Sequence record: MK327930.1
DNA length: 64,000 nt
Direction: 5' to 3' (one strand)
Source of the DNA: Escherichia phage EdH4
Each line of letters opens with the position of its first letter. The first letter of the stretch is position 1. This document shows positions 2,507 to 50,799 of the stretch, piece after piece. The position numbers and the translations under genes are program-made. Below the pieces are notes generated by a model. The model was not told where the DNA came from. It ran no database searches and saw nothing but the letters and a program-made list of their open reading frames with translations.

Positions 2507-2655
2507 TTTTATCGCTCTTTAAAACAAGGTGCCAACCGTTTCTAGTAGATCACTGACCACCAGGACAATACTGATCAGCACATATCTAACCATAAGGGGA
2601 AAGAGCGCCAGCGATCCCGCCACAATCCCCAAGGTAATGATTATCTTTTTCACGG

Positions 2656-4708: not shown

Positions 4709-5059
4709 TTATTTTGCATTCTTTCCTATATTGCCGCTACGGTACCAGCGTTTACGGTGAAAATGGTAATAATCACCATCGGCATTAAACATCAGATGAT
4801 TTTCAATAACCAGCTTACGAAGGTGGGCCGGATCTTGTTCCATTCTTGCCAGATTCTGGCGGCTGTTACGTAAGCGGATAAATTCTATATTCAGGCCGTT
4901 GATTGCAGCATGGATGTCAAAGTAACCACCTTTGAGACGTTCACGCATGGCGTTAAGCTCAACACAATATACAGATTTCTCACAAATCAAGGTATTAGCC
5001 AGGGCGCGGACCTGGGCAAGGGGGTTAAGCTCATTAAGGTAATATAGTTTTACTTTCAT
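4709..5059 (-). CDS. Hypothetical protein
   Basis: 116-aa ORF. Confidence 0.6.
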   Translation of the reverse strand: MKVKLYYLNELNPLAQVRALANTLICEKSVYCVELNAMRERLKGGYFDIHAAINGLNIEFIRLRNSRQNLARMEQDPAHLRKLVIENHLMFNADGDYYHFHRKRWYRSGNIGKNAK

Positions 5060-5464: not shown

Positions 5465-5467
5465 ATT

Positions 5468-5668
5468 TTACAGGCCTACAATCTCTTTAATTCGTTTTAC
5501 TGCTGCCTCAGCGCCTTGAGGGTAAAAATTATGGTAACCAATCACGCGAGTGATACTAATCGCCGTTTGATGATCTTCATAATCACCTTTAAAGATTTCT
5601 TGACCGTCAATCAGCACGGCAATTTTTTCTTCTTTTTTGAAGTTAATAACGCGGATATTGTTGCTCAT
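5468..5668 (-). CDS. Hypothetical protein
   Basis: 66-aa ORF. Confidence 0.5.
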   Translation of the reverse strand: MSNNIRVINFKKEEKIAVLIDGQEIFKGDYEDHQTAISITRVIGYHNFYPQGAEAAVKRIKEIVGL

Positions 5669-6148: not shown

Positions 6149-6520
6149 TTATTTAAACGGCTGGTCCACATATTTTCTATTCCTCTCAAATAGGCGATCC
6201 GCCTCAGTTAAACAAATCTCATGGGCGTGATCTCTGGTTTTAGCTTCATCGAAAACCTGTTGTGCAAGGCTGCAACGTAGGGAGACTGGAAGATCACTAT
6301 AATAGGCGTTGACAAACGTTTGAGCGTCGTACAGGTCTGAAAATACTTTACCCTTTCTATTATTCCCCTTGTCAACAATTGCAAGGATAACCAATACAAT
6401 AGTTGCAACCACCCCCAGGAAAATAGATATAATAAACCATAAAAAGGCGGATCTTCCCATCTTGCCAGCGATCCAGGCGTTAAACAAGGCAACCAATACA
6501 GCCAAAATAATAAATTCCAT
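6149..6520 (-). CDS. Membrane protein (two predicted TM helices)
   Basis: Start trimmed to the ATG with an AAGAGG RBS; MEFIILAVLVALFNAWIAG...FLWFIISIFLGVVATIVLVILAIV. Confidence 0.6.
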   Translation of the reverse strand: MEFIILAVLVALFNAWIAGKMGRSAFLWFIISIFLGVVATIVLVILAIVDKGNNRKGKVFSDLYDAQTFVNAYYSDLPVSLRCSLAQQVFDEAKTRDHAHEICLTEADRLFERNRKYVDQPFK

Positions 6521-6584
6521 TCTATGTACCTCTTTTACAGTTCTGATTAACAATAAGGCGGCAAATATGCCGCCTGCTACCTGA

Positions 6585-12213: not shown

Positions 12214-12543
12214 TCAGTTGTCTTTGTTTTTAGGTTTGTACATGCGCAGAGGTATGGTCTTTGTAACATTCCATTTCCTCAACCCTTCCCAGCTCCAGTT
12301 GTGGGCGTGGTATCCGGTTATGCATGCACTACTGGAGTGATCGTAAGCATAAGAGAACGCTAAGCGCACCAGGTGGGGCCAGTCCTTCCATGGTTGTGGA
12401 CCGTAAGCTTTTCTCCAACACCGACACAAACTAAATGTCTCAAGGATAGGAAGGATAACAAACCCATACACTGTCACCAAAATAGCCAGTGCAATGATTG
12501 TCAGGAATACATACCCTGCAGTTGAAATGATGATCTCTGTCAT
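12214..12543 (-). CDS. Membrane protein
   Basis: 109-aa ORF with N-terminal TM helix IISTAGYVFLTIIALAILVTVYGFVILPIL. Confidence 0.55.
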   Translation of the reverse strand: MTEIIISTAGYVFLTIIALAILVTVYGFVILPILETFSLCRCWRKAYGPQPWKDWPHLVRLAFSYAYDHSSSACITGYHAHNWSWEGLRKWNVTKTIPLRMYKPKNKDN

Positions 12544-28473: not shown

Positions 28474-28815
28474 CTACTCAAGGTCTTCAGAGTCAAGCTC
28501 AAAAAGAATCAAACTGTGCATACCTGCAGAGAGATTAACACACCCTGCAACAATAAGGGTTTGATAGTAAGGTTCAGCACCCTCAATGTCTTCGTTAAAA
28601 TCCACAACAAGGTAGTCACCTTTGTTAAAGGTGTATTTGTCCGATGTAAACGCAAAACCTGCCCAGTCCCCTACTGCAGGATCTTTATCAGTCACCTTTG
28701 TCAGCAGTAGATCTTTTTCACGAGATCTTTTAGTAAAATCGTGAATCACAACATCCTTCTCTTCAGGAGTTGGATTGCCACACACGTAGTTAACTATATT
28801 TCTCCACAAACTCAT
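28474..28815 (-). CDS. Hypothetical protein
   Basis: 113-aa ORF. Confidence 0.55.
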   Translation of the reverse strand: MSLWRNIVNYVCGNPTPEEKDVVIHDFTKRSREKDLLLTKVTDKDPAVGDWAGFAFTSDKYTFNKGDYLVVDFNEDIEGAEPYYQTLIVAGCVNLSAGMHSLILFELDSEDLE

Positions 28816-30182
28816 ACGTCCCCCTCTTCTGCTCTGGTTTCAAAATCTTTCCTGACAATTTTGTCTAAGTCAGGAAAGGTTGTATTGTAAAACTCTACTA
28901 CTCGCGGGTCAACAATAATGTCAACTTCTCTTAGTGGACGCAACAAGTTTATTCCTTGTATTGTCTTAACTCGACTCAAAGCAACATACGTCATCCCAGG
29001 AGAGAAAGCTCCGTTCTTTCCAAGGTCCAGGTTGTAACAATCTAGCGTAAGTCCTTGACTTTTATGAGATGTTACGGCGTACCCAGATTTCAGAGGGAGT
29101 TGCTTGTATGATCCAATCACTACCCTCTCTATAAACTTCTCCATCTTCCTTTCTGCAATGTTGTATCTTTGAGATGGCTTATACTCGTTATTCTCCCACA
29201 ACCTTTGTTCTATGTCAACCTGTGTTCCATCTTCAAGCTCCACCACCACCGCCTTGTTCTTAAATTTAACAATTGTGGCACGTGTTCCGTTAACATAATA
29301 AGGTACTTTGTGCGTCGGGTCAACATCGTTGGCGGTTATCATAACTTTCATGCCAATTTTCAACTTCATCTCCTGCTCAACTGGCAAGGTGGAGGGAAAC
29401 TTACCCTTCATTTCACCAGTGTATACCTTCTCTGGGGCGTTGATGGCATCATAGAACCTTCTGTTCACTTCCTCTGCTTGTTTGTTGGTGGCGCAAATTG
29501 TGATAGCGTCTGTTGGTACACCTCCTTTGTAACAGCGAGCATTAAGTTCTGCTACAACCTCTTTTATACGACGACCCTCACGAACACAGTTGAGCATTGT
29601 AGCAAATCGAATAGACTCCTGTCGGAACTGATCTATTAGGGCTATGTTGTGGAGGTCAAGCTCTTTCCAAGATTCGGTATAGCAACACAAGTCCGTATGG
29701 TAGAAGTTGAAGTAGGCTTCCTTCTCCATAGAAGAGACAACAGGAGGTGCCTGGTAAAAATCGCCAAACAATATGACCTGTATGCCTCCGAAAGGTTTGT
29801 CATTTTTTCGAAGGAAGCGGAGTTTCCTATCCATCTCTATAAACTTATCAGCACGGATCATAGAGATTTCATCGATAATTAGGATGGTAAATGCCTTGCT
29901 CTTCAAAGGCTTTGCTGTTTTTGCCCTTATTGCGGTCCAGTCTGACTCCATGCTCACACCTGCTGCAAGATCGAAGGTTCGGTGTGCTGTTGCTCCATTA
30001 ACGTTTAAAGCGGCTACCCCTGTCGGGGCAACCGTTATGCAAGAGTCTCCATACATTGACTGGATCATGTTGATGAGGTACGTCTTCCCACAACCTGCGG
30101 GTCCTGAAACGAAGACATTCTCACCGCTCATGATTGCAACGAGGGCAGCATCTGTGCCTACATCATACTGCCCTTTTTCCAT
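28812..30182 (-). CDS. Dda/RecD/Pif1-like superfamily 1 DNA helicase
   Basis: Walker A VSGPAGCGKT; IIDEISMI; AVTSHKSQGLTLD. Confidence 0.8.
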   Translation of the reverse strand: MEKGQYDVGTDAALVAIMSGENVFVSGPAGCGKTYLINMIQSMYGDSCITVAPTGVAALNVNGATAHRTFDLAAGVSMESDWTAIRAKTAKPLKSKAFTILIIDEISMIRADKFIEMDRKLRFLRKNDKPFGGIQVILFGDFYQAPPVVSSMEKEAYFNFYHTDLCCYTESWKELDLHNIALIDQFRQESIRFATMLNCVREGRRIKEVVAELNARCYKGGVPTDAITICATNKQAEEVNRRFYDAINAPEKVYTGEMKGKFPSTLPVEQEMKLKIGMKVMITANDVDPTHKVPYYVNGTRATIVKFKNKAVVVELEDGTQVDIEQRLWENNEYKPSQRYNIAERKMEKFIERVVIGSYKQLPLKSGYAVTSHKSQGLTLDCYNLDLGKNGAFSPGMTYVALSRVKTIQGINLLRPLREVDIIVDPRVVEFYNTTFPDLDKIVRKDFETRAEEGDV

Positions 30183-31387
30183 TACGCCTCCTCGTAAAGA
30201 ATGTCGATAGTGTTACCATCACGGTCAACCACGTATTCAATCGGATCGCCATCTTTGCGTGATTCCGGTGCTGCTACGATTTCGTAGCGGCATGCACGGC
30301 ACTTAGCACTGTTGTGTTGGTATGGCACACTAACCACATCCGCAGGGTCAACCATAACCATCATTACGGTGCCATAGCCCGCTGCATACTCTTTGCTGGC
30401 GCAGTGCAGGCCATAAGAACACGCAGCTTCCGGATCATCTTCTACAAAGTTACGAGGCATGGATACAAAAGCACCCTGGTATTGTGGAACTTTACCGCTG
30501 TGCCAATCCACCCACTTGCTTCCGTTAAACTGAACCCCCTTATAGCAAATGATTCGACCATCTTCTGCAACCTGGATGTCATTAGCCTGCATGAAATCGT
30601 AGAGCATGTTCACAGATTTTGCAGACGGGTTGCGTAGCAGACGGACAAGGAATTTAACATATCGGTCGTCCAGTGTTCCATCTATATAATCTTCCTCAAT
30701 TTTCTTTGCAATGGTAGATTGCATCTCTACACCGTAGTAATAGAGCTTACCATCTTTCATAATCAGGTTGTCTGCAAGTGTAGTGAACTCATTCTTGCGT
30801 TCCAACCAGACAAGGATTTCACCAATTGCCTCGTCATATTCCTGAACAGAGATATGGTCGAAGACTTTCTGGTAAACTTCCTCACTTTCGCTGCGGCGAA
30901 TTTCAAAAATGCCTTCGTTGCAGGTGATCTGGAGGAGTTCCCCACAAATAACCACCAAAGGCTCGATGTTTCGAGTCTGTTGCTGAGACACACTGCTCAC
31001 CACCTCCAGCACCGGATCTTTGACTTCTACTAAAGGTTCTTCTGACTTGATTGCCACCCCAGTGAACCCCACACCGTGAACAACACACAGTGGGTATACC
31101 ACGCCCCAACGTTTAACGGAACCTTCACCTAAATCTAAGATCATAGCGTACTTACCGTTATCTTCCAGACCGTATCGAAATAAACGGGCCTCTTCGCGGG
31201 TTTCAAAATCCTCACGGGTGTAGCAGACGCTGTCACGGTCAGGATCGAACAACTCTGGGGCACCAACTGCCAGTGTCCAGGTTGTGTCGCCTTTCTCAAT
31301 GGCACATGTGAAACCCTTCTTCTCAAGTTCTGCACGGCGGTCTCGTGCTTCTTTACGGGTTTTGAAATGTTCGTAGATGAAAATCAT
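30182..31387 (-). CDS. rIIB: rIIB-like protein
   Basis: C-terminal half matches recalled T4 rIIB blocks (NPSAKSVNMLYDFMQANDIQVAEDG; SYGLHCASKEY; VDPADVVSVPYQHNSAKCRACRYE); about 100-aa N-terminal extension. Confidence 0.7.
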   Translation of the reverse strand: MIFIYEHFKTRKEARDRRAELEKKGFTCAIEKGDTTWTLAVGAPELFDPDRDSVCYTREDFETREEARLFRYGLEDNGKYAMILDLGEGSVKRWGVVYPLCVVHGVGFTGVAIKSEEPLVEVKDPVLEVVSSVSQQQTRNIEPLVVICGELLQITCNEGIFEIRRSESEEVYQKVFDHISVQEYDEAIGEILVWLERKNEFTTLADNLIMKDGKLYYYGVEMQSTIAKKIEEDYIDGTLDDRYVKFLVRLLRNPSAKSVNMLYDFMQANDIQVAEDGRIICYKGVQFNGSKWVDWHSGKVPQYQGAFVSMPRNFVEDDPEAACSYGLHCASKEYAAGYGTVMMVMVDPADVVSVPYQHNSAKCRACRYEIVAAPESRKDGDPIEYVVDRDGNTIDILYEEA

Positions 31388-31397
31388 CTTGGTCTCC

Positions 31398-33380
31398 TTA
31401 TTTGATGTTATTCTTTGTATCGATCAGCTCACGGTATTCAATCATAGCAGGGGTGTCCCAATATTTCAAGCCCACATGCTTCAAAAGTGGATATTTCTTT
31501 TCCAATCTTGCAATATAGGCCTTCCCGCACTTAACCCGGTTGGCGATTAAGATTTTGGCACGATGATTTAGCTCACTGTGCTTCCACGCGGTGTTACCTT
31601 CCCACTTGTGGAAATGTGGCCGATAATTTCCAAAATCCTGCATGGGGATAATTTTCCCTAATTGTCTATACAAGCTGTCATATGAAGTTTCATTTGCTGC
31701 GCGAGTCAGTAAGAATTTCCAAGCATCCTCTTTCAACAAATGTTCCACATTCTTCTCTGTAACATACTGGCAATCAGGATCAGTCCAAAGCAGACGAGAT
31801 TCTGATACCAAGTACAGATCTTCACCTTCAGGAATCTGGAGTGCAGCACGCACACGGTCATAATTTTGCTGGTAGATGTTACTCAGCTGTCCCAGCCAAC
31901 AACTTCCACGTTGGATATCACCCTCATAAGGAATGCAGTGCTTAATCTTCTTGAACTCTGCCTTAGTAATACGTTCACGACGGAAGTAACCATCCTTCTC
32001 AAGCTTTTTAACCCAATAACCTGGCTCGTAATGAGTTTTTGTTTCACCTTTCTTCGCAGGTCGGCGAGGGAGCTCTGATAACAATTTGACAGTATCTGCA
32101 AAGAACGGATGGTGTGCCGCCTCTTTAAACTCTTTCACCAGATCCGTGTTCCGGCAATAGAAAACGTTGCGTCCGGTGATTTCGCTTAAGTAGTTACACT
32201 TATTTCGGTTATATTTACCATCTCCGTCGTTAAATACAAGGTATACACCTCGTAAGAACTCCGACTTTCCGTAACGAGCATAGCCTATGCGGCCTTTATT
32301 TAAGCCGCCAGCGAAAATTTCACAATCGCCTAAGTCGCCAAGCCCTGTTTCTTCCCAACGGTTCCACATAAAGTTTTTGCCGAAGATGTGTCCGAACACT
32401 CCACTATTCTTCATCATTTCACGTGCTTCTGCGGAGGTTTTTGCCGTCTCCAGTTCTGCAATAACTTCTGCCCCGCGAAGACGTATACCTTCTTTGACAA
32501 AGGCCTCCAGGCGATCCTGGAATCCACCGTCGTCATGGCCCTCTATGGTCCATTCACGCCCAGGGTTAATATTGCAATCCCCAATAGGAATTTCCACGCA
32601 GATTGCAGGGTAATCGGTCAATGTCTCCAGGAACTTGGAGCGGTAAGGTTGGTGACCCATCACAACACGGCTCTCATCAGAACTGGTATAACCTTTCAGG
32701 ATGGTCATTTTCCAGCCATCCTTCTCGTAATGATACTGTGCCTCAACCTTGTCACCTTCTAACATCTTACTGGTCATAGGATCGGTGACGATGAACGGAA
32801 ACTTCGCATAGCGTAAGCACGATGCAATAGCAGTGCGATATTTCAGGACATGCTCTTTCTTAACATGGAACTGAACTTTTACCCCGTTGTGCTCTTCAGT
32901 CTTCCGCTCACGGATCTTGGTAACGTTTGGGATACCCTGATCCAAGAACAATAGATATGTGCTTTCAACACCATTGTGCACACTGATAACATCGAAAGTG
33001 TCCACCATACTGAACGGAGCCTTTGAACCAACACCTTTATTACCTACCAGAGCGTTGCTGTTGCGCTTGGTTGACTCCCCGAGATTCATGAAAGTGTTGC
33101 GGACCATCTCTTCTGACATGCCCAATCCAACGTCCTGCACAAAGAAGTATGGTTCAAGGTCTGTAGGAGAGTGAATGATGATCGGTACATCACCCCGTCC
33201 AGACTCAACATGGGAGTCCACAGCATTGAAGATTGGTTCACGGCAGCTTGCCAGCACCTTATCTTCGTAAATCCCTTTAATGATTAGCCCAAAAGTCTCT
33301 TTGTTCAGAGAAATTGAGCCCCTGGTGACCTCCATATTTCCGGTCAGCACTGCTTTAGTTTCATTACTGTTTACAATCAT
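31398..33380 (-). CDS. rIIA: rIIA-like protein (GHKL-type ATPase fold)
   Basis: Bergerat motifs REPIFNAVDSH, VQDVGLGMS, GNKGVGSKAPFSMVDTF parallel the T4 rIIA N-terminus. Confidence 0.75.
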   Translation of the reverse strand: MIVNSNETKAVLTGNMEVTRGSISLNKETFGLIIKGIYEDKVLASCREPIFNAVDSHVESGRGDVPIIIHSPTDLEPYFFVQDVGLGMSEEMVRNTFMNLGESTKRNSNALVGNKGVGSKAPFSMVDTFDVISVHNGVESTYLLFLDQGIPNVTKIRERKTEEHNGVKVQFHVKKEHVLKYRTAIASCLRYAKFPFIVTDPMTSKMLEGDKVEAQYHYEKDGWKMTILKGYTSSDESRVVMGHQPYRSKFLETLTDYPAICVEIPIGDCNINPGREWTIEGHDDGGFQDRLEAFVKEGIRLRGAEVIAELETAKTSAEAREMMKNSGVFGHIFGKNFMWNRWEETGLGDLGDCEIFAGGLNKGRIGYARYGKSEFLRGVYLVFNDGDGKYNRNKCNYLSEITGRNVFYCRNTDLVKEFKEAAHHPFFADTVKLLSELPRRPAKKGETKTHYEPGYWVKKLEKDGYFRRERITKAEFKKIKHCIPYEGDIQRGSCWLGQLSNIYQQNYDRVRAALQIPEGEDLYLVSESRLLWTDPDCQYVTEKNVEHLLKEDAWKFLLTRAANETSYDSLYRQLGKIIPMQDFGNYRPHFHKWEGNTAWKHSELNHRAKILIANRVKCGKAYIARLEKKYPLLKHVGLKYWDTPAMIEYRELIDTKNNIK

Positions 33381-33877
33381 TTATTGCGCTCCTTGTAGTA
33401 GATATGGCTCCCGAATTGAGCTGTCCTCTGCATCTTTTTTGCCCATTTCGGTCGTACTTTGGTTGTATGGTAGTGTGTTGCTCCACCTGTTATGTCCATA
33501 GCCATGTATGCAACATGGTTGTTATTATAGACCTTTAGAAGCATCTTTGCAAGACTTTTAGCGTGATCCCATGAATCTTTTTCTGTCACCTTAAAAGTTT
33601 TGCCGTGGTTTGTCCACGAAAACTGGTTAGGTTGGTAGACAATCTTTCTTATAGTGTCTGGGTATTTAGGGTGGGATTTCCTGTTTAGTGTGGCAAACCC
33701 AGATGCCAGCATACCCATCGTGCCATCTCCTCTAGCTTCCCTGTAGATATTGCATGCCAGAATGTTTTCCTTAGTATCTGATGGCTTGCAAGTATGATAT
33801 ACTTTTTGTTTTGGTGCTGCAACAACAGGCAGCGATAAAAGTGCGCTCAAAATAATAGCAAAGATCTTAATTTTCAC
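33377..33877 (-). CDS. Cell-wall hydrolase, SleB-like, with N-terminal signal peptide
   Basis: MKIKIFAIILSALLSLPVVAAPKQ then the YREARGDG hydrolase motif. Confidence 0.7.
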   Translation of the reverse strand: MKIKIFAIILSALLSLPVVAAPKQKVYHTCKPSDTKENILACNIYREARGDGTMGMLASGFATLNRKSHPKYPDTIRKIVYQPNQFSWTNHGKTFKVTEKDSWDHAKSLAKMLLKVYNNNHVAYMAMDITGGATHYHTTKVRPKWAKKMQRTAQFGSHIYYKERNK

Positions 33878-33891
33878 AATGACTCCAAATA

Positions 33892-33914
33892 GAAAATCCC
33901 CGCCGAAGCGGGGG
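33892..33914 (-). terminator. Rho-independent terminator
   Basis: Hairpin ccccgccgaagcggggg plus T-run on minus; the same hairpin type recurs at 60333. Confidence 0.6.
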
Positions 33915-34318: not shown

Positions 34319-35503
34319 TTAAGCTTTAGCCAAAATGGCGCTAAACTCTTCACCAAACTCTTTTACAATCTTCATCAGGTTTGGGTATGCTTTGATCAGC
34401 TGAGCAACAATCTTGTCACGCCCTTTACCGATAAGCAAGGCATTTCCTAAGGCATTAGGTTTCATCATCGCCATAAAGACTGAGAATACAAAATCTCGGT
34501 TCTCGTCCTTGAAGTTTTCCCAAAGGAAATCGAGGAAGTTTGCCACGCAGCTGACAAGATCTTCGTCTGAGATACTTGCATTTTCCATCATATTGCGAAT
34601 AGCGATACAACCTTCAGATCCAAGAATCCACAAAATGTCTGGCTGCTTAGGACCTACGTATTCTTTGCAGCCACCTGCCATAATCCGACCGATTTCCGGT
34701 AAATTACGTTTCTTGGTGTGGTAAGTCCAGATCTCTACCGCTGCAGTGTGACCAATAGCACCTTGTAGAAGAACACGGGCCATAGCGTCAGAAATAATAC
34801 CGCTGTCAAAATCGTGCAAGATGTCAGATGCAGCAACCCAAGATCGTGGTGTGGCAAAAGATGGACAATTAATCTCAGCCATAGCCTCATAATTATCAAT
34901 AGCTGATGGAACTCTTTTCAGATACCCAATTACAGAGGAGTGAACCCCGTTGAGGAATGCGTAGTCCTCAATAAACACCTCTGCATTGCTTGTAACCTCT
35001 ACAATGATAAAACGGTTAGCCAGAGGGGCTTCGAGCGCCGAAAGAACCGCACCATCTGTAGAACGGTTACCCGCAGCCACAAAAACAGAACCCTTAGGGA
35101 ATGCATAGGTGCCGCACTTGTGGTCAAGCATAATTTGCATTGCAACCTTTTGCAGGTAGTTATCTGCATGAGTGAGCTCATCCAGAAAGATAATTCCGCT
35201 CCAGTCAGGATCCGCAGGCCAAAATTCTGGAATTGCAAACACTGTACGTGTAGTTCCATCCGCTTCTACAGGGATAGGTAGCCCAGATAAGTCGGCAGGA
35301 TCTTTATCTGACAGTCGCACGTCAACAAGGTTGTCATCTCGCTCACCGAACATATTATCAGCGATCTGCTTCATCACCTGGCTTTTACCCACACCCATTG
35401 GTCCCAAAATTAGGACAGATCGGCTATGACGTTGGGCAAACTGAATAATAGCTGGCAACTCACGGACAGTGATTTGACCACTTTCGAATACGTTTCTTGA
35501 CAT
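34319..35503 (-). CDS. MoxR-like AAA+ ATPase
   Basis: Walker A GPMGVGKS; Walker B IIFLDELTHA. Confidence 0.75.
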   Translation of the reverse strand: MSRNVFESGQITVRELPAIIQFAQRHSRSVLILGPMGVGKSQVMKQIADNMFGERDDNLVDVRLSDKDPADLSGLPIPVEADGTTRTVFAIPEFWPADPDWSGIIFLDELTHADNYLQKVAMQIMLDHKCGTYAFPKGSVFVAAGNRSTDGAVLSALEAPLANRFIIVEVTSNAEVFIEDYAFLNGVHSSVIGYLKRVPSAIDNYEAMAEINCPSFATPRSWVAASDILHDFDSGIISDAMARVLLQGAIGHTAAVEIWTYHTKKRNLPEIGRIMAGGCKEYVGPKQPDILWILGSEGCIAIRNMMENASISDEDLVSCVANFLDFLWENFKDENRDFVFSVFMAMMKPNALGNALLIGKGRDKIVAQLIKAYPNLMKIVKEFGEEFSAILAKA

Positions 35504-37105: not shown

Positions 37106-38001
37106 ACCCTCGCATAAATTAAACTTGTATCAGTATACTTCTTTAATGGGTAAATATCCTGTCCATAGATGCAATCATTAAACACCTCATCTACCCAAAG
37201 GCTACACTTATATCCCATCATTTCTAAAACACCCATCTCTTCTTCGGTAAACTTATCACCGCTCTTGCAAGATGTCAATACCTCATTCTGAACTCTTGCT
37301 ACCTCGAAGCGGTTATTGGCAATATCGCTATTGGCGATCAAATACTCACCTAGAGGGTGTGCGGCATTAAAGATGCACAGTGGACGGCTGACGTAATAGT
37401 CTCCAGGTGTATAAAAATTGTTGAGGTCTTTCACTAGAACATTCTTATCAGTCACTTCATTTATAACATCATGCATATCGCACATCTTTATATGTTTGAG
37501 GATTCCATCCCCCATCACAAAATAAAAACTTGCTGAGACACTTTCGGCATAGATCCTACTAGATCCGTTGTAGTTGTATTTTACTCGGATGCTAACGGGG
37601 GTTTTTCCTGTCGCGTTAGCCATCATCCAAAGAAATGGCAGCTCATACTTCTCCTCTGAGGAAACAAAAGGTGAGGTAGCCAGAGATCGAAAACCTCCAG
37701 AGAAGTTGAAAGTTACAGAACCGCTCCGGCGGTATGATACCGCGTATTCTACTTTTATATCGACATACCCATTGGAATAGGTGTGTCCTTCATTATCTAA
37801 ATATGTCCACTTATCAGACCCAGATACCAATCTACGCTCAATAACCTTCATCACTATAGGAATTAATGGGTTGGTACAAACCGCTTTTGAAGTAGCTTTA
37901 TCATCTAAAGCCTCGTAAATTGCAGAAAGGATGTCCCCAGCTGAAAGATTGGTTGTTATGTCCTGTTTCCACCGCGTACTAAAACTGTTAAGATTTGCCA
38001 T
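37102..38001 (-). CDS. Hypothetical protein
   Basis: 299-aa ORF, first gene of the minus-strand operon. Confidence 0.6.
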   Translation of the reverse strand: MANLNSFSTRWKQDITTNLSAGDILSAIYEALDDKATSKAVCTNPLIPIVMKVIERRLVSGSDKWTYLDNEGHTYSNGYVDIKVEYAVSYRRSGSVTFNFSGGFRSLATSPFVSSEEKYELPFLWMMANATGKTPVSIRVKYNYNGSSRIYAESVSASFYFVMGDGILKHIKMCDMHDVINEVTDKNVLVKDLNNFYTPGDYYVSRPLCIFNAAHPLGEYLIANSDIANNRFEVARVQNEVLTSCKSGDKFTEEEMGVLEMMGYKCSLWVDEVFNDCIYGQDIYPLKKYTDTSLIYARV

Positions 38002-45162: not shown

Positions 45163-48100
45163 TTAACGAGAAAAGGTTGCGTAGGCTTCTAGACGATACT
45201 GCTGGTCACCAGGGAACATAACACCTATAGAGGCTGTCCCTAGAATCCTGCCTTCCTTTCCAGACTCCATTCTGAACCCTACCCATCCTGAACTCCTTGC
45301 AGCCTCGATGTTGTCGCTATACCCGAAAGTGGCAAGATCGTCAACACCAGCCCCAAACAGCAACTGAAGCTGACTTCTCGGAAGCCCTATAATTTCAGGA
45401 ATATACGCACCAAAGTACACCATCTGCCCTACCTTAGGACCGCTGCCGTACTCCATCGGTTTGCTTGTAGAGAAAGTCTTCATACCAGAAGTACCTGCCG
45501 GATTAGGGTATGCCCCGTTTGTTGCTGTACCTATCCACATTCTCCACTGTGGTGCCATCTGTTTGACAGTAAAAGATGTTGAAGACGTTTTGCGCCCTGC
45601 ATCATCAGTAACTACAAACTTTATGGTGACATTCCCAGTAGCTTTAAATGTTACCAGCCCTGTGGCAGCATCCACTGTTGCAATGTTGGTATTACTACTT
45701 TCCCAAGTCTTTCTAATACCGGATACGTTGGAAGGGGTAATAGAAGGTTCCTGCATCTGCAGTTTACCACCCACAATCCCTATGCCGTTACCTGGATTAT
45801 ACAGCACACCAACCTCGTCTACAATGTTCCCTGCTTTGAGACTATACTTCCTTGAGAAGTTGTAGGTTCCGTTATAAGTGTGTGTCCCTGAGAAGGTGAC
45901 ATCTGCCTTCCCGTAAGAGATGCAAACCAAAGCATACTTCCTGTCAGGCAACGTTTCTCCAGTCTCTGGGTGAGTTTTACCTACCTGGAACACACTCGGG
46001 TCAGTAGAGTCGTGACTATCACTAACGGCGCTTGGACCGCCCATCAACTGTGACAAACAATTCCTTACCCATGTCCAGTTATTATCGCTGGAGAAGTCCA
46101 CAGTCAAATCAAACACAACCCACTCATTTGGCTTCCACACAGGTGTTGTAATGGACTTGCCTACACCACCTCCTTGGAGTGTTGCCGACTGTTCAGTGAT
46201 CAGGGCCGCATAGGCCAGAGTTCCTAAACTCAGAGTCTGGCTTGCTGTCCTCACTACCTTAGAATCAGCATCTGTGAAGTTGTTGATGATTTGGAATGTG
46301 CCATAAGTGTTTTTACAGGTAATTCTGGCGTTCAGTGTGTCAATCTTCCTCACATCTGCCATAGCAGTGTTAGACACAGAGAAGTCAGAAGCTTTAGCTG
46401 AGTTTGCCGCAACAGCAGGATCAACGTTAAGAGTTGCGTTGAACTGACAGGCAGGGGTAACCAGCAGCTTGTTATCACCTATTTGCTTCCATGAAATACT
46501 TTGGACAGGTAGATTCCATTTAATACCTGAGAAAACTTTAGCAACCCTTGGCCCCAAAGCTCCAGTCCTGTTGTCTTTACAGCACATAGACATAGTGATC
46601 GTTGACGGAGTTGCCTGACCGAACAATTCCTGTGCTTTTGCAGAGGACATAGTGTAGAAATTGTCCTTAACAAACTCATCAGCGGCTAAAGATCCGTCAG
46701 CCCTCCACCACTGCACCTGGTACCCGGTCTTATCCCAGCCACCGACCTGCTTCAGGTCTTCCCAGGAGATTTCCAGATCCCCAGTGGTAGGGTTGATTGC
46801 AGCAGCTCCTGGTGTTCCAGAGGACCATAATGGGATATCGAACCACGCTGGTTTAGCAGACTGCACTGCACTAGGCCCTATTGCAGCAGCAAGTTGCTGG
46901 CCCATCAATACACGAGCATCTTTCACCAGACCCCACTCGATCATGGACCCGGAGTAACCTTCTTTCTTGTAGGCTGAGGATCCGTTCAAATGGATGAGTC
47001 GGCTTGTGCCAAAGTTATATGCTCCACCACCGTTGTCGTCTGCAAAATTGTATATAACCCTATCTCTGATATCTTTCCATGCTCTACCGCCAATCTCGTA
47101 GTCATGGTCATAACATCTTTGCAATGTTGTCCAGCAAATGATCGCCATCCTTCTGCCGTCACTAAAGCCAAAGGCCTGATCGTTAAGCTCTCTCCACAAG
47201 TAGCAGTTAGTGGTCCACATAGCTCTGTGAATGTTGAACCAATTTATAGACCTGGCTGCATTGTTGTAGGCGGTGCCTTCTAGCGTAGGCCACACTGCAT
47301 TAACCAGCATATCCTCTGTCCCTGCGTCTATCAGGAATCCTCTCACTTTCTTACCCATTCCTATCCTATCCTTGGCAATCCATGAGCCGAACAATTTCAG
47401 TTTAGGACCGATTACGGCATCCTCTGGATGCTCAAGAGAGACATACTTCAAGTATACTGTAGGATCACCGTAGGTGCCATCACAAACAGCTTTGTGCATG
47501 TTTTCACCAAGGTCCAGACGGATACCTGTGAGAGTTTTGGTATCATCTGTGAACTTATCTGTCAAATCAAACTCGTACCACCACCACCCGGCTCCAAGTA
47601 AAACTTTCTTACAGCGCTTGGAGTCTGTGTCGGAGATTCTTTTATCCCCTGCATATGGTGAGTCTGCAAACTGGTAGTGCAGAGCAACTTCAAAAGGATG
47701 TGTGGATGTTCCGTTTTCTGCAAGAACTTGCTTCCCGATCAGATCGCATTTAATAATCATCACGACACGTCTGTATCCATTGGCAACTGGAACGTCGAAC
47801 GGATACCTCGCACCATCCATATTCGCATGCAAAGCTGCGAAATTTATGTATGGGTCAACAGCGTTACCTAAAGTTTCAGGCCCTGGGATCATCTTGTACT
47901 TCTTGACCTGTCCCATAATATAGTCGCTGCCGTAGGTTGCAGCCTCGAAGCAAGAGCCGCTGTCAGGCAGTTCAGCAGGCCCCCAAAAGTATGCTCCGTA
48001 ACAATTATAGAACCATTTGTTAGGGTCGTAGTTATTCTTGAAGGTCTGAACCTCGTTGGCCTGTTTTGTCAAGAAAACCTGCGTATCTGTAAAGATTGCA

Positions 48101-50799
48101 GGATTTACCCTTGCCTGACGCGGAGGGTAACCTGTAGTTTGGTTAAACCACAAATTACAAGAGTAATCCCTCATATAGTCATAATCAGAGTATTTGTTTG
48201 CATCCTCGTTCCAACACATGTTCAGGTTGGTACCGCCCATGCATACAATATATTCTGCGACATACTTATCACTTCTGGTAGGAATACCTATGAACCATCT
48301 GTTAACAGGTTCATCCCAAGCTGTGCGCTCATCTTTAACGCAGATAGCAATCCAGTCATGTGTTCCTGTTTTCTTGCACACATCCCGCTTCATACCATAG
48401 TAGAACTCTTTAGTATTCGGCTCAGGTGCATTTATCAGGTAACTCCATGCCTGATTTGCATAAGTTCCATTGGTGCGTGGATCATGATCAAAGGCATACA
48501 TGATGATCCTTTCCCCACCAAGATGTTCGCCAAGAGTAACTTTGACATTCACATCGCCGTAACCATTGCGAACAACATCCATATTGTCAATAGATATACC
48601 TCTGGGAGTGTAGGCAATCTTCAGTGAGTTATCCTCACTAGTGCCACCAAGTGTAATCCCTATGTTGTTTGTTGTCCCATCGGCATATCTTACTGTAGCT
48701 TCCCAGCGTATTCCGAAATATCCTACATCATGGCTGACAATTTTCAGTGTACGAGCGCCAGGGTGAGGTTTTCCAGGATCAGGCCAAGGGTCTGGGTGTT
48801 CGTGGACAGTCAACGACGTTCCGTTTTGCTCGTTAACCTGCAACATTTTACCACCTCTGCCGTTAGGGTTGAACTCCCATACGGCCTGTGTCTGCACCAA
48901 GTTGTTGTAGGTATTTCGTCTCTGATCATAAATCTCTTGGGTAACATCATAAGTGACTGATCCAGCATCCATTCTGTGGAGTCGGACCATATACGATGTA
49001 TCCCCTTCTACTGCAGGCTGAGTCCCATTCAGTCCGAAGTATACAGTATCGTTAACATGGAACTGCTTGTTTCTACCAACGGTATGCCACTTGCCGTTGG
49101 ACGGATACGCAGGAACTATGGTGTTCCAGTTCAAAGTCCTTGTTGTGTGAGTTCTGCCTGTGCCATGCTTGTCATGATAGGTTATTTTTACAGAGTACAG
49201 GCCACGTCTGTTAACATTTCTGTTATACTGGGTAACAACAACTTCATTGGCCCCGCCGTGGTTCCAGTTGGTGGAGAATTGGTAATTTGCATCTGTAACA
49301 ACCGTACCTGCAGCATTCACCAGTTCAATCTTGTCAATGATGAACGTAGCTCCCTCTGGCTGAGGCTTCAATTTCATCTTGACCGTGTCACCAATGTAGA
49401 TATTGCTAACACTGCTAACACCATTAACGTCGAAAATATCATCAACGCCCCAACTGTCTACTGGGACATTTTTATACCAATTCTCAGGAACCTCTGTGAA
49501 CCCCTGACTATTAAGTCTGCCGCCAAACAGGTTATTAGAGCCTGTAAAACTTCCCCTTGGGATACCTGACCACCAAAGTTTACCATTAACAACAGTAAAG
49601 GTCCCTAAGAAACCTTCTCTGTGGATGCCTTGGAAATAAACACTCTCTGTCCAGCTGACTGGCAGGCGTTGCTCAACATATTTAGCTGTAGCAAGAGCTT
49701 GATAGTGGATAAAATCGGCCCTAGGACTATTGTTTGCAGATTGTGCACCAATATCATTACATAAGTTGCGAGAGAACCCACGATACTGCTTAGTGCCATT
49801 ATTGAAGAAAATGCCACTTGTGCCGTACCCACGAGCCATCATTACCTCATGGGTGTAGGTGATATTCAGTTCCCGCCATGTATCATCTCCCCAAATGTTT
49901 TGACCATAAAATACGTTAACAAGCTGCTGGTCATCGGGTCTATGCATCCTCTGTGTAGCAATTACTGCCCCGTTAGGACCACACATAAACCCTTTCCACT
50001 CCTCATCTGCAGGAATGCCCCTCAAATCGTTACGAGTAATCTGCACAGGAGGCCAAACAAGGTCGTTTCTACTGTTATTTCTCAGAAAGTCGTATCCAGC
50101 AATCCAGAAACCCCTAGGACCACCGAAAATAACAGAGTTGTCATGCACCTCACAGTTGATGCTTGGGTTTTTCCAAGGGCCTGTTTCAGGATCTTCCGAT
50201 GTCTCACCAATCTTTACAGGGGTTGCATGCTGATTTTTATCTACATGCAAAGATCCGTAGGTGTTGTTACCAGATCCATACAGGTTAAGTATGCCAGCAC
50301 CTTCTGCCTCTGCAATAACCCAGACAGTGTTGTTAATACCGCCCATCACCTCAATAAGGCGTTCTGGGTGGGTGTCAAGGTGCAATCCTTTAACAATCTG
50401 CTCTGGGAGTGGTGTCCACTCGTTTACGCAAACATCATTACCGCCTGCCGCAGTGGATCCGATAAGACCTGCAGTGCAGCCGATGTAGAAAAACTGGTTA
50501 TCAAAAGTCCGGATCACAAACGCGCGGTCTGCTCTCCACACATGATCAACATTCCAGGCTGTTTCGCTCGGATAGTTTATAGGGCTACGATCCCCAGTGC
50601 GGCACTCTCCGAACTTGTTATAGCCAGTAATATTAAGCTGACCATCATCAAAAAGTATAGCTAAGCTATTTACATAGGATACTGTGTTGCTTGTACCATC
50701 ACTGTTGTCTATTGGGTATGACAGAACAGCAAGTTCCTTAATTCCACCCCTCTTATCGAGGAAATGACGACCAAGTTTTAGCAAAGGGATTGGAAGCAT
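45163..50799 (-). CDS. Very large tail fibre or host-range protein with C-terminal Ig-like (BIG2-type) domain
   Basis: 1878 aa; C-terminal NVSGIRKTWESSNTNIATVDAATGLVTFKATGNVTIKFVVTDDAGRKTSSTSFTV resembles a bacterial Ig-like fold; last gene of the tail module. Confidence 0.6.
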   Translation of the reverse strand: MLPIPLLKLGRHFLDKRGGIKELAVLSYPIDNSDGTSNTVSYVNSLAILFDDGQLNITGYNKFGECRTGDRSPINYPSETAWNVDHVWRADRAFVIRTFDNQFFYIGCTAGLIGSTAAGGNDVCVNEWTPLPEQIVKGLHLDTHPERLIEVMGGINNTVWVIAEAEGAGILNLYGSGNNTYGSLHVDKNQHATPVKIGETSEDPETGPWKNPSINCEVHDNSVIFGGPRGFWIAGYDFLRNNSRNDLVWPPVQITRNDLRGIPADEEWKGFMCGPNGAVIATQRMHRPDDQQLVNVFYGQNIWGDDTWRELNITYTHEVMMARGYGTSGIFFNNGTKQYRGFSRNLCNDIGAQSANNSPRADFIHYQALATAKYVEQRLPVSWTESVYFQGIHREGFLGTFTVVNGKLWWSGIPRGSFTGSNNLFGGRLNSQGFTEVPENWYKNVPVDSWGVDDIFDVNGVSSVSNIYIGDTVKMKLKPQPEGATFIIDKIELVNAAGTVVTDANYQFSTNWNHGGANEVVVTQYNRNVNRRGLYSVKITYHDKHGTGRTHTTRTLNWNTIVPAYPSNGKWHTVGRNKQFHVNDTVYFGLNGTQPAVEGDTSYMVRLHRMDAGSVTYDVTQEIYDQRRNTYNNLVQTQAVWEFNPNGRGGKMLQVNEQNGTSLTVHEHPDPWPDPGKPHPGARTLKIVSHDVGYFGIRWEATVRYADGTTNNIGITLGGTSEDNSLKIAYTPRGISIDNMDVVRNGYGDVNVKVTLGEHLGGERIIMYAFDHDPRTNGTYANQAWSYLINAPEPNTKEFYYGMKRDVCKKTGTHDWIAICVKDERTAWDEPVNRWFIGIPTRSDKYVAEYIVCMGGTNLNMCWNEDANKYSDYDYMRDYSCNLWFNQTTGYPPRQARVNPAIFTDTQVFLTKQANEVQTFKNNYDPNKWFYNCYGAYFWGPAELPDSGSCFEAATYGSDYIMGQVKKYKMIPGPETLGNAVDPYINFAALHANMDGARYPFDVPVANGYRRVVMIIKCDLIGKQVLAENGTSTHPFEVALHYQFADSPYAGDKRISDTDSKRCKKVLLGAGWWWYEFDLTDKFTDDTKTLTGIRLDLGENMHKAVCDGTYGDPTVYLKYVSLEHPEDAVIGPKLKLFGSWIAKDRIGMGKKVRGFLIDAGTEDMLVNAVWPTLEGTAYNNAARSINWFNIHRAMWTTNCYLWRELNDQAFGFSDGRRMAIICWTTLQRCYDHDYEIGGRAWKDIRDRVIYNFADDNGGGAYNFGTSRLIHLNGSSAYKKEGYSGSMIEWGLVKDARVLMGQQLAAAIGPSAVQSAKPAWFDIPLWSSGTPGAAAINPTTGDLEISWEDLKQVGGWDKTGYQVQWWRADGSLAADEFVKDNFYTMSSAKAQELFGQATPSTITMSMCCKDNRTGALGPRVAKVFSGIKWNLPVQSISWKQIGDNKLLVTPACQFNATLNVDPAVAANSAKASDFSVSNTAMADVRKIDTLNARITCKNTYGTFQIINNFTDADSKVVRTASQTLSLGTLAYAALITEQSATLQGGGVGKSITTPVWKPNEWVVFDLTVDFSSDNNWTWVRNCLSQLMGGPSAVSDSHDSTDPSVFQVGKTHPETGETLPDRKYALVCISYGKADVTFSGTHTYNGTYNFSRKYSLKAGNIVDEVGVLYNPGNGIGIVGGKLQMQEPSITPSNVSGIRKTWESSNTNIATVDAATGLVTFKATGNVTIKFVVTDDAGRKTSSTSFTVKQMAPQWRMWIGTATNGAYPNPAGTSGMKTFSTSKPMEYGSGPKVGQMVYFGAYIPEIIGLPRSQLQLLFGAGVDDLATFGYSDNIEAARSSGWVGFRMESGKEGRILGTASIGVMFPGDQQYRLEAYATFSR

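What the first reader, a model, noticed from the sequence alone, without database searches (positions are those of the whole stretch)
30182..33877. rIIA-rIIB pair co-transcribed with a signal-peptide-bearing SleB-like hydrolase
rIIA (GHKL motifs) and rIIB (with an N-terminal extension of about 100 aa relative to T4 rIIB) are membrane-associated lysis-timing proteins best known from T4-like myoviruses. Here they sit in a phage with a lambda-J-type tail, immediately downstream of a secreted SleB-like cell-wall hydrolase whose stop overlaps the rIIA start. No holin is adjacent. The hydrolase could be a Sec-exported or signal-anchor-release endolysin whose activity is tuned by the rII proteins.
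Basis: partly seen in the sequence, partly recalled or inferred. Interest (0 to 1): 0.4.

Follow-up and report, generated by a model that had tools for sequence, protein, structure and literature searches.

The report
Known rV5-phage hydrolase and rII genes
These are three already-annotated accessory genes of an rV5-like E. coli phage: an exported cell-wall hydrolase the phage can do without, and an rIIA/rIIB pair that protects it from a prophage defence. They are not a new way of timing lysis.

Summary
The three genes are real and lie exactly where stated, all on the minus strand. They are a 166-aa SleB-type hydrolase with a Sec-type signal peptide (33377-33877), rIIA (31398-33380) and rIIB (30182-31387).

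The window is a Vequintavirus, an rV5-like contractile-tailed phage, 99.8% identical to phage pangalan over this stretch. The same genes, with the same sizes, were published for rV5 in 2013 and are annotated in more than 100 GenBank records.

The idea that the hydrolase is the endolysin and is tuned by rII is not supported:
- Close relatives carry a separate lambda-R-type endolysin and Rz/Rz1 spanins elsewhere in the genome.
- In published transposon data for phage Bas54 (96.7% identical here), that endolysin and the spanins are essential. The SleB-like gene, rIIA and rIIB are all dispensable.
- Published knock-downs in EdH4, a phage of the same genus, show that its rIIA/rIIB counter lambda RexAB.
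- Exported SleB-like genes occur in more than 1,300 phage records. Only 2 of 80 surveyed loci also carry rII nearby, and both are Vequintavirus.

What the exported hydrolase actually does is unknown. That question is modest and already recognised. The finding is ordinary and already known.

The parts
33898..33913 (-). Terminator-like hairpin CCCCGC-UUCG-GCGGGG followed by AUUUUCUAUUU, ending 20 nt upstream of the SleB-like start codon
   Evidence: Found by the terminator scan. Identical in four Vequintavirus relatives. PVP-SE1 has a hairpin of different sequence plus a T-run at the same position. Function as a terminator or attenuator is inferred.
33377..33877 (-). SleB-type (Hydrolase_2) cell-wall hydrolase, 166 aa, GTG start; orthologue of rV5 gene 2 and bas54_0065
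   Evidence: Pfam PF07486, E=2.1e-19. phmmer to SleB structures 4F55/4FET. AF2 model with pLDDT 88 matches only SleB catalytic domains. rV5 Table S3 lists the same gene.
33818..33877 (-). Signal peptide, aa 1-20 (MKIKIFAIILSALLSLPVVA); predicted SPase I cleavage between A20 and A21
   Evidence: Lys2 and Lys4 form the n-region. The 15-aa h-region has mean Kyte-Doolittle 2.69 and no Gly. Pro17 is followed by V-V-A, and Pro22 disfavours cleavage one residue later (rule-based, no SignalP run). Homologues in four other lineages and 73 of 80 IMG/VR loci also have an N-terminal hydrophobic segment.
33737..33739 (-). Codon of Glu47, the putative catalytic glutamate (motif YREARG)
   Evidence: Aligns with the first Glu of YGESRGE in SleB 4F55/4FET. 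Invariant in alignments A1 and A2.
31398..33380 (-). rIIA, 660 aa; orthologue of rV5 gene 1 and bas54_0066
   Evidence: PHROG 612, E=1.8e-124 over the full length. BLASTP to T4 rIIA, E=3e-21.
32940..33233 (-). GHKL (Bergerat) ATPase-like region of rIIA, aa 50-147
   Evidence: Pfam HATPase_c_3, E=1.7e-8, 35 bits against a cutoff of 25.
30182..31387 (-). rIIB, 401 aa; orthologue of rV5 gene 238 and bas54_0067
   Evidence: PHROG 609, E=2.2e-60 over aa 132-375. BLASTP to T4 rIIB, E=1e-37, aa 172-371 against T4 107-304.
31088..31387 (-). N-terminal module of rIIB (aa 1-100): two repeats with the motif F-x-[ST]-R-x-E-A-R; not shared with T4 rIIB
   Evidence: Weak Pfam SPOR hit, 22.4 bits, E=1.6e-4, aa 8-42. 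Single-sequence AF2 gives beta-alpha-beta-beta for aa 3-42 at pLDDT 56-80. PVP-SE1 rIIB has the same motif twice, while T4 has an HTH-like N-terminus. Only 3 hits among 1.84 billion representative proteins.
28812..30182 (-). Context: PIF1/Dda-like helicase whose start overlaps the rIIB stop; the same gene string continues into methylases, primase/helicase and DNA polymerase
   Evidence: Pfam PIF1, E=1.1e-32, and PHROG 325. Gene order taken from phage ime.
33927..34307 (-). Context: 126-aa acidic conserved hypothetical protein (rV5 gene 3) just upstream of the hairpin
   Evidence: PHROG 12370, E=1.6e-88. rV5 Table S3. No transmembrane segment.
34319..35503 (-). Context: MoxR-type AAA ATPase, orthologue of bas54_0063
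   Evidence: PHROG 1297, E=2.2e-110. Reported as needed against the predicted defence system DS-28 (HIDEN-SEQ preprint).

Best explanation
The region holds three ordinary, already-annotated accessory genes. They sit near the head of the long leftward early/middle gene string of an rV5-like myovirus (Vequintavirus).

**The hydrolase.** The 166-aa protein is a SleB-type lytic-transglycosylase-like enzyme. It is made as a precursor with a cleavable Sec signal peptide and released into the periplasm without needing a holin (inferred from sequence). It is an auxiliary wall-modifying enzyme, not the lysis enzyme. Terminal lysis is carried out by a separate soluble lambda-R-type endolysin, Rz/Rz1 spanins and a still-unidentified holin, all encoded elsewhere in the genome.

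**rIIA and rIIB.** These are cytoplasmic or membrane-associated counter-defence proteins. They let the phage grow on hosts carrying lambda RexAB, which has been shown experimentally for a phage of the same genus.

**Why they are adjacent.** The adjacency is inherited gene order within Vequintavirinae, not a functional coupling. In sister lineages a small two-transmembrane, holin-like ORF lies between the hydrolase and rIIA. In this genus that ORF is gone, and the hydrolase stop now overlaps the rIIA start.
For: **Identity of the phage**
- 99.8% identity to phage pangalan; 120 phage records match, and the top records carry these annotations.
- Gene sizes are identical to rV5 genes 2, 1, 238, 237, 3 and 4.

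**The hydrolase**
- Pfam Hydrolase_2 match, catalytic Glu conserved, and the AF2 model matches only SleB catalytic domains.
- The N-terminus is of Sec signal-peptide type and this is conserved across lineages.
- A signal peptide, and toxicity on expression in E. coli, are reported for the CB7 homologue (PMC7344957).

**Separate lysis genes**
- Lambda-R-type endolysin, 1AM7 E=1.5e-56, found in 78 records at 95% identity or more. It is absent from the window.
- Spanins lie next to the terminase.
- LysECP26, the homologous enzyme, is muralytic (PMC9728275).

**Genetics in Bas54 (96.7% identical here)**
- Essential: endolysin 0/24 TA sites hit, and both spanins 0 hits.
- Non-essential: SleB-like 32/36, rIIA 90/101, rIIB 56/59.

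**rII function**
- EdH4 is classified in Vequintavirus murica. Knock-down of its rIIA or rIIB matters only on RexAB hosts.

**No SleB-rII linkage outside the subfamily**
- Only 2 of 80 IMG/VR loci carry rII nearby.
- T5-like, Pakpunavirus and phi92-like phages have the hydrolase with no rII alongside it in the 4-5 kb flanks examined.
- The same order is kept in PVP-SE1 and in locus L092, with a small ORF in between.
Against: - Export and cleavage are predicted by rule only. No SignalP run or experiment was available.
- Muralytic activity on E. coli peptidoglycan has not been shown for any member of this phage clade. [quoted passage not shown]
- The timing of expression is unknown because no transcriptome was found.
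- Non-essentiality was measured on E. coli K-12 in rich medium, so a conditional lysis role is not excluded.
- The annotated 'putative holin' of Bas54 is itself non-essential (27/28 TA sites hit). The holin side of lysis in this group is therefore unresolved.
- The tight translational packing of SleB and rIIA (ATGA overlap) is compatible with co-regulation.
- The genetic and RexAB data come from close relatives, not from this exact phage.
Confidence: 0.78

Rival explanations
1. The SleB-like protein is the phage's working endolysin, exported by Sec or as a SAR protein, and rIIA/rIIB tune its activity or timing.
For: - Signal peptide plus a muralytic fold.
- ATGA overlap with rIIA.
- PHROG 938 and RefSeq label it 'endolysin'.
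- The CR3 homologue is 'implicated in host lysis' according to PMC7344957.
Against: - A separate endolysin is essential and the SleB-like gene is dispensable in Bas54.
- rII knock-down has no phenotype without RexAB.
- The h-region is strongly hydrophobic, lacks Gly and is followed by an AxA-type site, so it is not SAR-like.
- SleB-like genes are widespread without rII.
- rII occurs in T4 without a neighbouring SleB-like gene and in other phage groups such as N4.
Confidence: 0.04
2. A remnant second lysis module. Ancestrally, the exported hydrolase and the small two-transmembrane protein after it formed a secreted-lysin/pinholin-type pair. Vequintavirus lost the membrane partner, leaving a redundant back-up lysin that only speeds or completes wall breakdown once the membrane is depolarised.
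For: - A two-transmembrane ORF with a charged C-terminus sits directly after the SleB-like gene in L092.
- The same appears in an alternative frame of PVP-SE1 and, by report, in Certrevirus as CB7_82.
- No such ORF exists in the window.
Against: - Across 80 diverse SleB-like loci, only 6 have an adjacent small ORF with two or more transmembrane segments, about the background rate.
- The gene is strongly conserved in Vequintavirus (98-99% aa identity in the closest phage records), which argues against a decaying relic.
- No functional data exist for the small ORFs.
Confidence: 0.12
3. The exported hydrolase is a host-takeover, competition or counter-defence factor rather than a lysis factor. 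It might remodel the sacculus early to exclude superinfecting phages, or to support infection of particular hosts or growth states. This would fit its neighbours MoxR (anti-DS-28) and rIIAB (anti-Rex).
For: - It lies in the early/middle string between two experimentally supported anti-defence loci.
- It is dispensable on K-12.
- It is conserved in many large virulent phages. Those examined (rV5-like, PVP-SE1 and, by report, Certrevirus) also have another endolysin.
Against: - It was not significantly depleted in the clinical isolate whose comparison was retrieved (log2FC -0.88, adjusted p = 1.0).
- No known defence system targets or is blocked by a periplasmic transglycosylase.
- The idea rests purely on gene context.
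Confidence: 0.1

Closest known systems
Escherichia phage rV5 genes 2 (cell wall hydrolase), 1 (rIIA) and 238 (rIIB) (Kropinski et al. 2013, PMC3606486), and their orthologues in more than 100 Vequintavirus records, e.g. pangalan, ime, MaxBurger/Bas54
   Same: Same genes, same order and same protein lengths (166, 660 and 401 aa). Nucleotide identity is 96-99.8%.
   Different: Nothing of substance. The window is simply another isolate of this genus.
T4 rIIA/rIIB (membrane integrity protectors; anti-RexAB)
   Same: The rIIA N-terminal GHKL-like region is 28% identical and the rIIB C-terminal core is 36% identical. Both are adjacent early genes. The anti-RexAB role has been shown for the Vequintavirus EdH4 pair.
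   Different: The rIIB N-terminus is a different module: two SPOR-like repeats here against an HTH-like region in T4. The rest of rIIA is not detectably similar by BLASTP. The neighbouring genes also differ.
Bacillus SleB germination-specific lytic transglycosylase (PDB 4F55, 4FET)
   Same: Same catalytic-domain fold (Foldseek probability 1.00, TMt 0.74-0.79) and the catalytic Glu is conserved.
   Different: There is no N-terminal peptidoglycan-binding domain, only a signal peptide plus the catalytic domain. The substrate cannot be spore-cortex muramic delta-lactam in E. coli. Sequence identity is about 24%.
Pectobacterium phage CB7 gp83 (SleB-like, signal peptide) with gp82 (two-transmembrane holin candidate) (Buttimer et al. 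2020, PMC7344957)
   Same: A homologous exported SleB-like protein, conserved in all Vequintavirinae genera and encoded apart from the other lysis genes.
   Different: CB7 has a small two-transmembrane ORF overlapping the hydrolase gene and lacks rIIA/rIIB. Here there is no such ORF, and rIIA follows directly.
SAR endolysins (P1 Lyz, phage 21 R21) and Sec-secreted endolysins (Oenococcus phage fOg44 Lys44); comparison from my own knowledge
   Same: A holin-independent, Sec-dependent route to the wall compartment.
   Different: SAR domains are Gly/Ala-rich, uncleaved and membrane-tethered until depolarisation. This N-terminus is Leu/Ile-rich, has no Gly and carries an AxA-type site. Those enzymes are also the phage's main lysin, whereas this one is dispensable.

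Membership tests
SleB/CwlJ cell-wall hydrolase family (Pfam Hydrolase_2, PF07486) | Profile match above the curated threshold | tested here: met
   70.4 bits against a cutoff of 27, E=2.1e-19, covering profile positions 2-100 of 100.
SleB/CwlJ cell-wall hydrolase family (Pfam Hydrolase_2, PF07486) | Catalytic glutamate in the Y-x-E-[AS]-R-G motif | tested here: met
   Glu47 aligns with the first Glu of YGESRGE in 4F55/4FET. It is invariant in alignments A1 and A2.
SleB/CwlJ cell-wall hydrolase family (Pfam Hydrolase_2, PF07486) | SleB catalytic-domain fold | tested here: met
   The AF2 model (pLDDT 88) hits only 4F55/4FET, with probability 1.00 and TMt 0.74-0.79.
SleB/CwlJ cell-wall hydrolase family (Pfam Hydrolase_2, PF07486) | Lytic transglycosylase activity on peptidoglycan | not testable with these tools
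   Needs a zymogram or muropeptide analysis of the purified mature protein.
Sec (SPase I) signal-peptide protein | Basic n-region, h-region of 10-15 residues, small residues at -3 and -1, no Pro at +1 | tested here: met
   The sequence is MKIK / IFAIILSALLSLPVV / V-V-A|A-P, judged by rule-based inspection and a hydropathy score of 2.69. No dedicated predictor was available. The literature reports a predicted signal peptide for the CB7 homologue.
SAR (signal-anchor-release) endolysin | Uncleaved N-terminal transmembrane domain rich in Gly/Ala/Ser and weakly hydrophobic | tested here: not met
   The h-region has no Gly, 10 of 17 residues are Leu/Ile/Phe/Val, it is short, and a cleavage-type motif follows it.
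Phage endolysin in the functional sense (the enzyme required for host lysis) | Required for plaque formation or lysis; usually clustered or co-regulated with a holin and spanins | tested here: not met
   Published transposon data for the Bas54 orthologue show 32 of 36 TA sites hit, i.e. non-essential. The lambda-R-type endolysin shows 0 of 24, i.e. essential. There is no holin or spanin within about 20 kb in the window. This is literature evidence from a relative, not from this exact phage.
rIIA | Full-length profile match and an N-terminal GHKL-like ATPase region | tested here: met
   PHROG 612, E=1.8e-124, aa 1-658. HATPase_c_3, E=1.7e-8. T4 rIIA, E=3e-21.
rIIB | Conserved C-terminal rIIB core | tested here: met
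   PHROG 609, E=2.2e-60. T4 rIIB, E=1e-37 over about 200 aa. A relative's orthologue carries Pfam PF26926 Phage_T4_rIIB.
rIIB | T4-type N-terminal region | tested here: not met
   No alignment to T4 aa 1-106. Instead there are two repeats with a weak SPOR-like signature.
rIIAB anti-RexAB counter-defence module | Needed only on RexAB-expressing hosts | not testable with these tools
   Shown by CRISPRi-ART for EdH4, which is classified in Vequintavirus murica like phage ime. Not tested for this exact phage.

The most novel reading that the evidence does not exclude
The signal-peptide SleB-like enzyme is not a lysis protein at all. It belongs to a widespread, unrecognised class of periplasmic phage effectors found in more than 1,300 phage records across rV5-like, phi92-like, T5-like and PAK_P1-like lineages. 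Where checked, these phages also carry another endolysin. The enzyme would remodel the host sacculus during infection for a conditional benefit, such as particular hosts or growth states, superinfection exclusion, or counter-defence. That would fit its position between the MoxR (anti-DS-28) and rIIAB (anti-Rex) genes.
Probability: 0.2. Interest if true: 0.5.

Novelty: already known. Interest (0 to 1): 0.1.

Why it matters
It matters little as a discovery. The genes, their order, the signal peptide and the rII function are all in the literature or in public annotation.

Two practical points follow:
- Automatic labels call this protein 'endolysin' and the rII pair 'lysis inhibitors'. Both labels are misleading for this lineage, because the real endolysin is elsewhere and rII acts against RexAB.
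- One open question is left: why do so many large virulent phages of Gram-negative bacteria keep an exported, dispensable SleB-type hydrolase alongside their main endolysin? This is directly testable, because Bas54 mutants already exist.

Tried and rejected
- **SAR endolysin reading.** Rejected on the composition of the h-region and the presence of a cleavage-type motif.
- **Lipoprotein reading.** Rejected because there is no lipobox Cys in the signal region.
- **General SleB-rII linkage.** Tested on 80 IMG/VR loci; only the two Vequintavirus loci have rII nearby. Four annotated lineages were also checked.
- **General SleB-holin linkage.** Six of 80 loci have an adjacent small ORF with two or more transmembrane segments, about the background rate.
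- **A conserved gene 3 (T5.083-like) + SleB pair.** Not found in T5-like or other lineages.
- **rIIB N-terminal module.** The word-index homologue search returned only two fragments. The exhaustive representative search returned 3 hits, one of them a marginal match to a repeat-rich surface protein. Single-sequence AF2 of rIIB was poor, mean pLDDT 37.8, so no fold search was attempted. The SPOR-like label stays weak.
- **Sigma-70 promoter scan.** 24 sites against 22.7 expected by chance, so it is uninformative.
- **Search for a Vequintavirus transcriptome.** Nothing found, so temporal class remains inferred from gene order.
- **Pfam on the relative's lambda-R-type endolysin.** No hit. Its identity was settled against PDB 1AM7 instead.
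Full report
**What is there**

On the minus strand the window carries three tightly packed ORFs at exactly the reported coordinates.
- A 166-aa protein at 33377-33877, with a GTG start behind a GGAG ribosome-binding site.
- A 660-aa protein at 31398-33380.
- A 401-aa protein at 30182-31387.

Profile searches confirm all three.
- The first matches Pfam Hydrolase_2 (the SleB/CwlJ family) at E=2.1e-19, well above the curated cutoff.
- The second matches the rIIA PHROG end to end (E=1.8e-124). It also carries a GHKL-type HATPase_c_3 region at aa 50-147.
- The third matches the rIIB PHROG (E=2.2e-60).
- Direct comparison with T4 gives 28% identity over the first 198 residues of rIIA (E=3e-21) and 36% over the C-terminal 200 residues of rIIB (E=1e-37).

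The gene junctions are tight. The hydrolase stop overlaps the rIIA start as ATGA. The rIIA-rIIB gap is 10 nt and contains AAGGAG. The rIIB stop overlaps the start of a PIF1/Dda-like helicase.

**Which phage this is**

The 3.7-kb region is 99.8% identical to Escherichia phage pangalan. It is 96-98% identical to dozens of other Vequintavirus (rV5-like) genomes, and the best-matching records carry these annotations.

The 2013 rV5 gene table lists genes of identical length: rIIA (660 aa), cell wall hydrolase PF07486 (166 aa), a 126-aa conserved hypothetical, MoxR ATPase (394 aa), rIIB (401 aa) and a PIF1 ATPase (456 aa).

rV5 is a contractile-tailed myovirus (PMC3606486). The relative APECc02 encodes a tail sheath.

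The window encodes a 1199-aa fibre protein at 60358-63957 with lambda J C-terminal domains. However, it sits beside a Baseplate_J gene, and the sheath gene simply lies outside the window. rII genes in a large myovirus are not unusual. The BASEL paper describes rIIAB as common in large myoviruses and N4-like phages.

**Genomic setting**

The three genes lie in the long leftward gene string that starts at the divergent region near 38,000. The GC skew flips there, and the rV5 paper reports bidirectional promoters between its genes 10 and 11.

The string runs through MoxR, the 126-aa gene, the hydrolase, rIIA, rIIB, the helicase and two methylases, then on to primase/helicase and DNA polymerase. 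This is the replication and host-takeover module, not a lysis cassette.

A GC-rich hairpin with a UUCG loop and a T-run (33898-33913) ends 20 nt before the hydrolase start.
- It is conserved in Vequintavirus.
- PVP-SE1 has a hairpin of different sequence at the same place.
- A phi92-like phage has a hairpin followed by a sigma-70-like promoter.

I infer an attenuating terminator in front of the hydrolase. No terminator-like site lies between the hydrolase and the helicase on this strand. Co-transcription of the three genes, and of the genes beyond them, is therefore plausible but not shown. I found no transcriptome for this phage group.

**The hydrolase**

The catalytic Glu of Bacillus SleB aligns with Glu47 in the motif YREARG. 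This residue is invariant in two alignments.

An AlphaFold model built on ten sequences (pLDDT 88) matches only the SleB catalytic domains 4F55 and 4FET in the PDB (probability 1.00, TMt 0.74-0.79).

The N-terminus MKIKIFAIILSALLSLPVVA|AP has these features:
- a basic n-region;
- a 15-residue Leu/Ile-rich h-region with no Gly;
- Pro at -4;
- V-V-A before the predicted cut;
- Pro22, which disfavours cleavage one residue later.

This is a Sec/SPase I signal peptide, not a Gly/Ala-rich SAR anchor. It is not a lipoprotein signal either.

Homologues in PVP-SE1, a phi92-like phage and a T5-like phage have the same kind of signal. The Pakpunavirus homologue has an N-terminal anchor instead. Of 80 IMG/VR loci encoding a relative, 73 show an N-terminal hydrophobic segment.

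Buttimer et al. already reported the signal peptide, conservation in all Vequintavirinae genera, and toxicity on expression for the CB7 homologue.

**It is not the phage's endolysin**

Relatives encode a 156-aa soluble protein that matches lambda lysozyme R (1AM7, E=1.5e-56). It lies next to DNA ligase, about 68 kb away, and Rz/Rz1 spanins sit beside the terminase. Neither gene set is in the window.

The rV5 paper names this protein (gp89) as the lysin. Its homologue LysECP26 is muralytic in vitro.

The decisive evidence is the HIDEN-SEQ transposon map of Bas54, which is phage MaxBurger. That phage is 96.7% identical to the window over this region, with matching gene coordinates.

| Gene in Bas54 | TA sites hit | Call |
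|---|---|---|
| Lambda-type endolysin (bas54_0202) | 0 of 24 | Essential |
| i-spanin and o-spanin | 0 | Essential |
| SleB-like hydrolase (bas54_0065) | 32 of 36 | Non-essential |
| rIIA | 90 of 101 | Non-essential |
| rIIB | 56 of 59 | Non-essential |
| Annotated 'putative holin' | 27 of 28 | Non-essential |

Because the annotated holin is also dispensable, the true holin is unknown.

**What rII does here**

CRISPRi-ART knock-down of rIIA or rIIB in five phages, including EdH4, had no effect on Rex-free hosts. It lowered plating efficiency on lambda RexAB hosts. EdH4 is classified in Vequintavirus murica, the same species as phage ime, which is 98.2% identical to the window here. The rII pair of this lineage is therefore a counter-defence module. 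The 'lysis inhibitor' label is historical.

**Is the hydrolase coupled to rII?**

SleB-like genes are found in 1,334 phage records. In T5-like, Pakpunavirus and phi92-like genomes they are not next to rII. Only the two Vequintavirus loci out of 80 IMG/VR loci carry rII within the flanks, and 54 of those loci have at least 3 kb of downstream sequence. Certrevirus has the hydrolase but no rII.

The order hydrolase-rIIA-rIIB-helicase is kept in PVP-SE1 and in a metagenomic relative, L092. The adjacency is therefore inherited gene order within part of one subfamily.

In L092 a 76-aa ORF with two transmembrane segments and a charged C-terminus lies between the hydrolase and rIIA. PVP-SE1 has a similar ORF in a frame other than the annotated one. 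CB7 has one as well. The window has none.

This suggests an ancestral hydrolase plus small-membrane-protein pair that Vequintavirus has reduced. Across diverse phages, however, such adjacency is at background level (6 of 80 loci).

**The rIIB 'extension'**

The protein is 89 aa longer than T4 rIIB, and the conserved core is offset by 65 aa. The N-terminus is not an addition to the T4 architecture but a different module. T4 has an HTH-like region. This protein and PVP-SE1 rIIB have two F-x-[ST]-R-x-E-A-R repeats.

The support for a SPOR-like fold is thin:
- a weak Pfam SPOR hit (22.4 bits, E=1.6e-4);
- a beta-alpha-beta-beta prediction for the first repeat, from an otherwise poor model.

The module is nearly confined to this lineage, with only 3 hits among 1.84 billion representative proteins. 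I treat 'SPOR-like' as a lead only. For a cytoplasmic protein it may be no more than a generic small alpha/beta fold.

**Verdict**

- The feature is already known and annotated.
- The remaining question is why many large virulent phages keep a dispensable exported SleB-type enzyme. It is modest, already recognised in the literature, and easy to test with existing mutants.

Noticed in passing
window 33898-33913 (-); L005 about 4850-4890: A terminator-like hairpin lies directly upstream of the SleB-like gene. It is conserved in position but not in sequence between Vequintavirus and PVP-SE1. A phi92-like phage has a hairpin plus a sigma-70-like promoter at the same place.
   Followed up: partly
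L092 6583-6813; L005 about 5465-5626 (frame +1 after the SleB gene): Relatives carry a small holin-like ORF between the SleB-like gene and rIIA, with two transmembrane segments and a charged C-terminus. The annotated PVP-SE1 gene 244 appears to be in the wrong frame. Vequintavirus lacks this ORF.
   Followed up: partly
window 31088-31387 (-): The rIIB N-terminus consists of two repeats of about 45 aa (F-x-[ST]-R-x-E-A-R, then beta strands) with a weak SPOR-domain hit. It replaces the HTH-like N-terminus of T4 rIIB and is almost restricted to this lineage.
   Followed up: partly
window 34319-35503 (-): This MoxR-type ATPase is the orthologue of bas54_0063. A 2025 preprint reports that gene as required to overcome a predicted defence system (DS-28) of a clinical E. 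coli isolate. The downstream PIF1 helicase orthologue was also strongly depleted in one of the clinical-isolate comparisons in the same supplementary table.
   Followed up: partly
phage records MG0656xx: Sixteen GenBank records named 'Campylobacter phage' (15 give host C. jejuni) match this region; those listed among the best hits are 96-97% identical. They are probably mislabelled or contaminant assemblies.
   Followed up: no
window 45163-50799 (-): The window has a single 1878-aa ORF carrying a Big_2 domain. Phage ime annotates two overlapping ORFs at the same place (ime_178 and ime_179). This is either a fusion or frameshift difference, or an annotation split, in the tail-fibre region.
   Followed up: no
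window 60358-63957 (-) and 58762-60252 (-): A 1199-aa fibre protein with lambda J C-terminal domains (Phage_Tail_Tip, Ig_J) sits next to a Baseplate_J gene in a myovirus.
   Followed up: yes
window 2519-2653, 6149-6553, 12214-12543 and 2656-2940 (all -): There are three small ORFs with two hydrophobic segments, and a 94-aa ORF with a classic signal peptide. The annotated 'putative holin' of Bas54 is non-essential, so the true holin of this phage group remains unidentified.
   Followed up: no
L003 17697-17903 (APECc02 gp134, outside the window): A 68-aa ORF next to the lambda-type endolysin is annotated 'lysozyme'. It actually has a lipoprotein-like or signal-like N-terminus (MKDFLLAILFMAACLACG). 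Its Bas54 counterpart is non-essential.
   Followed up: no
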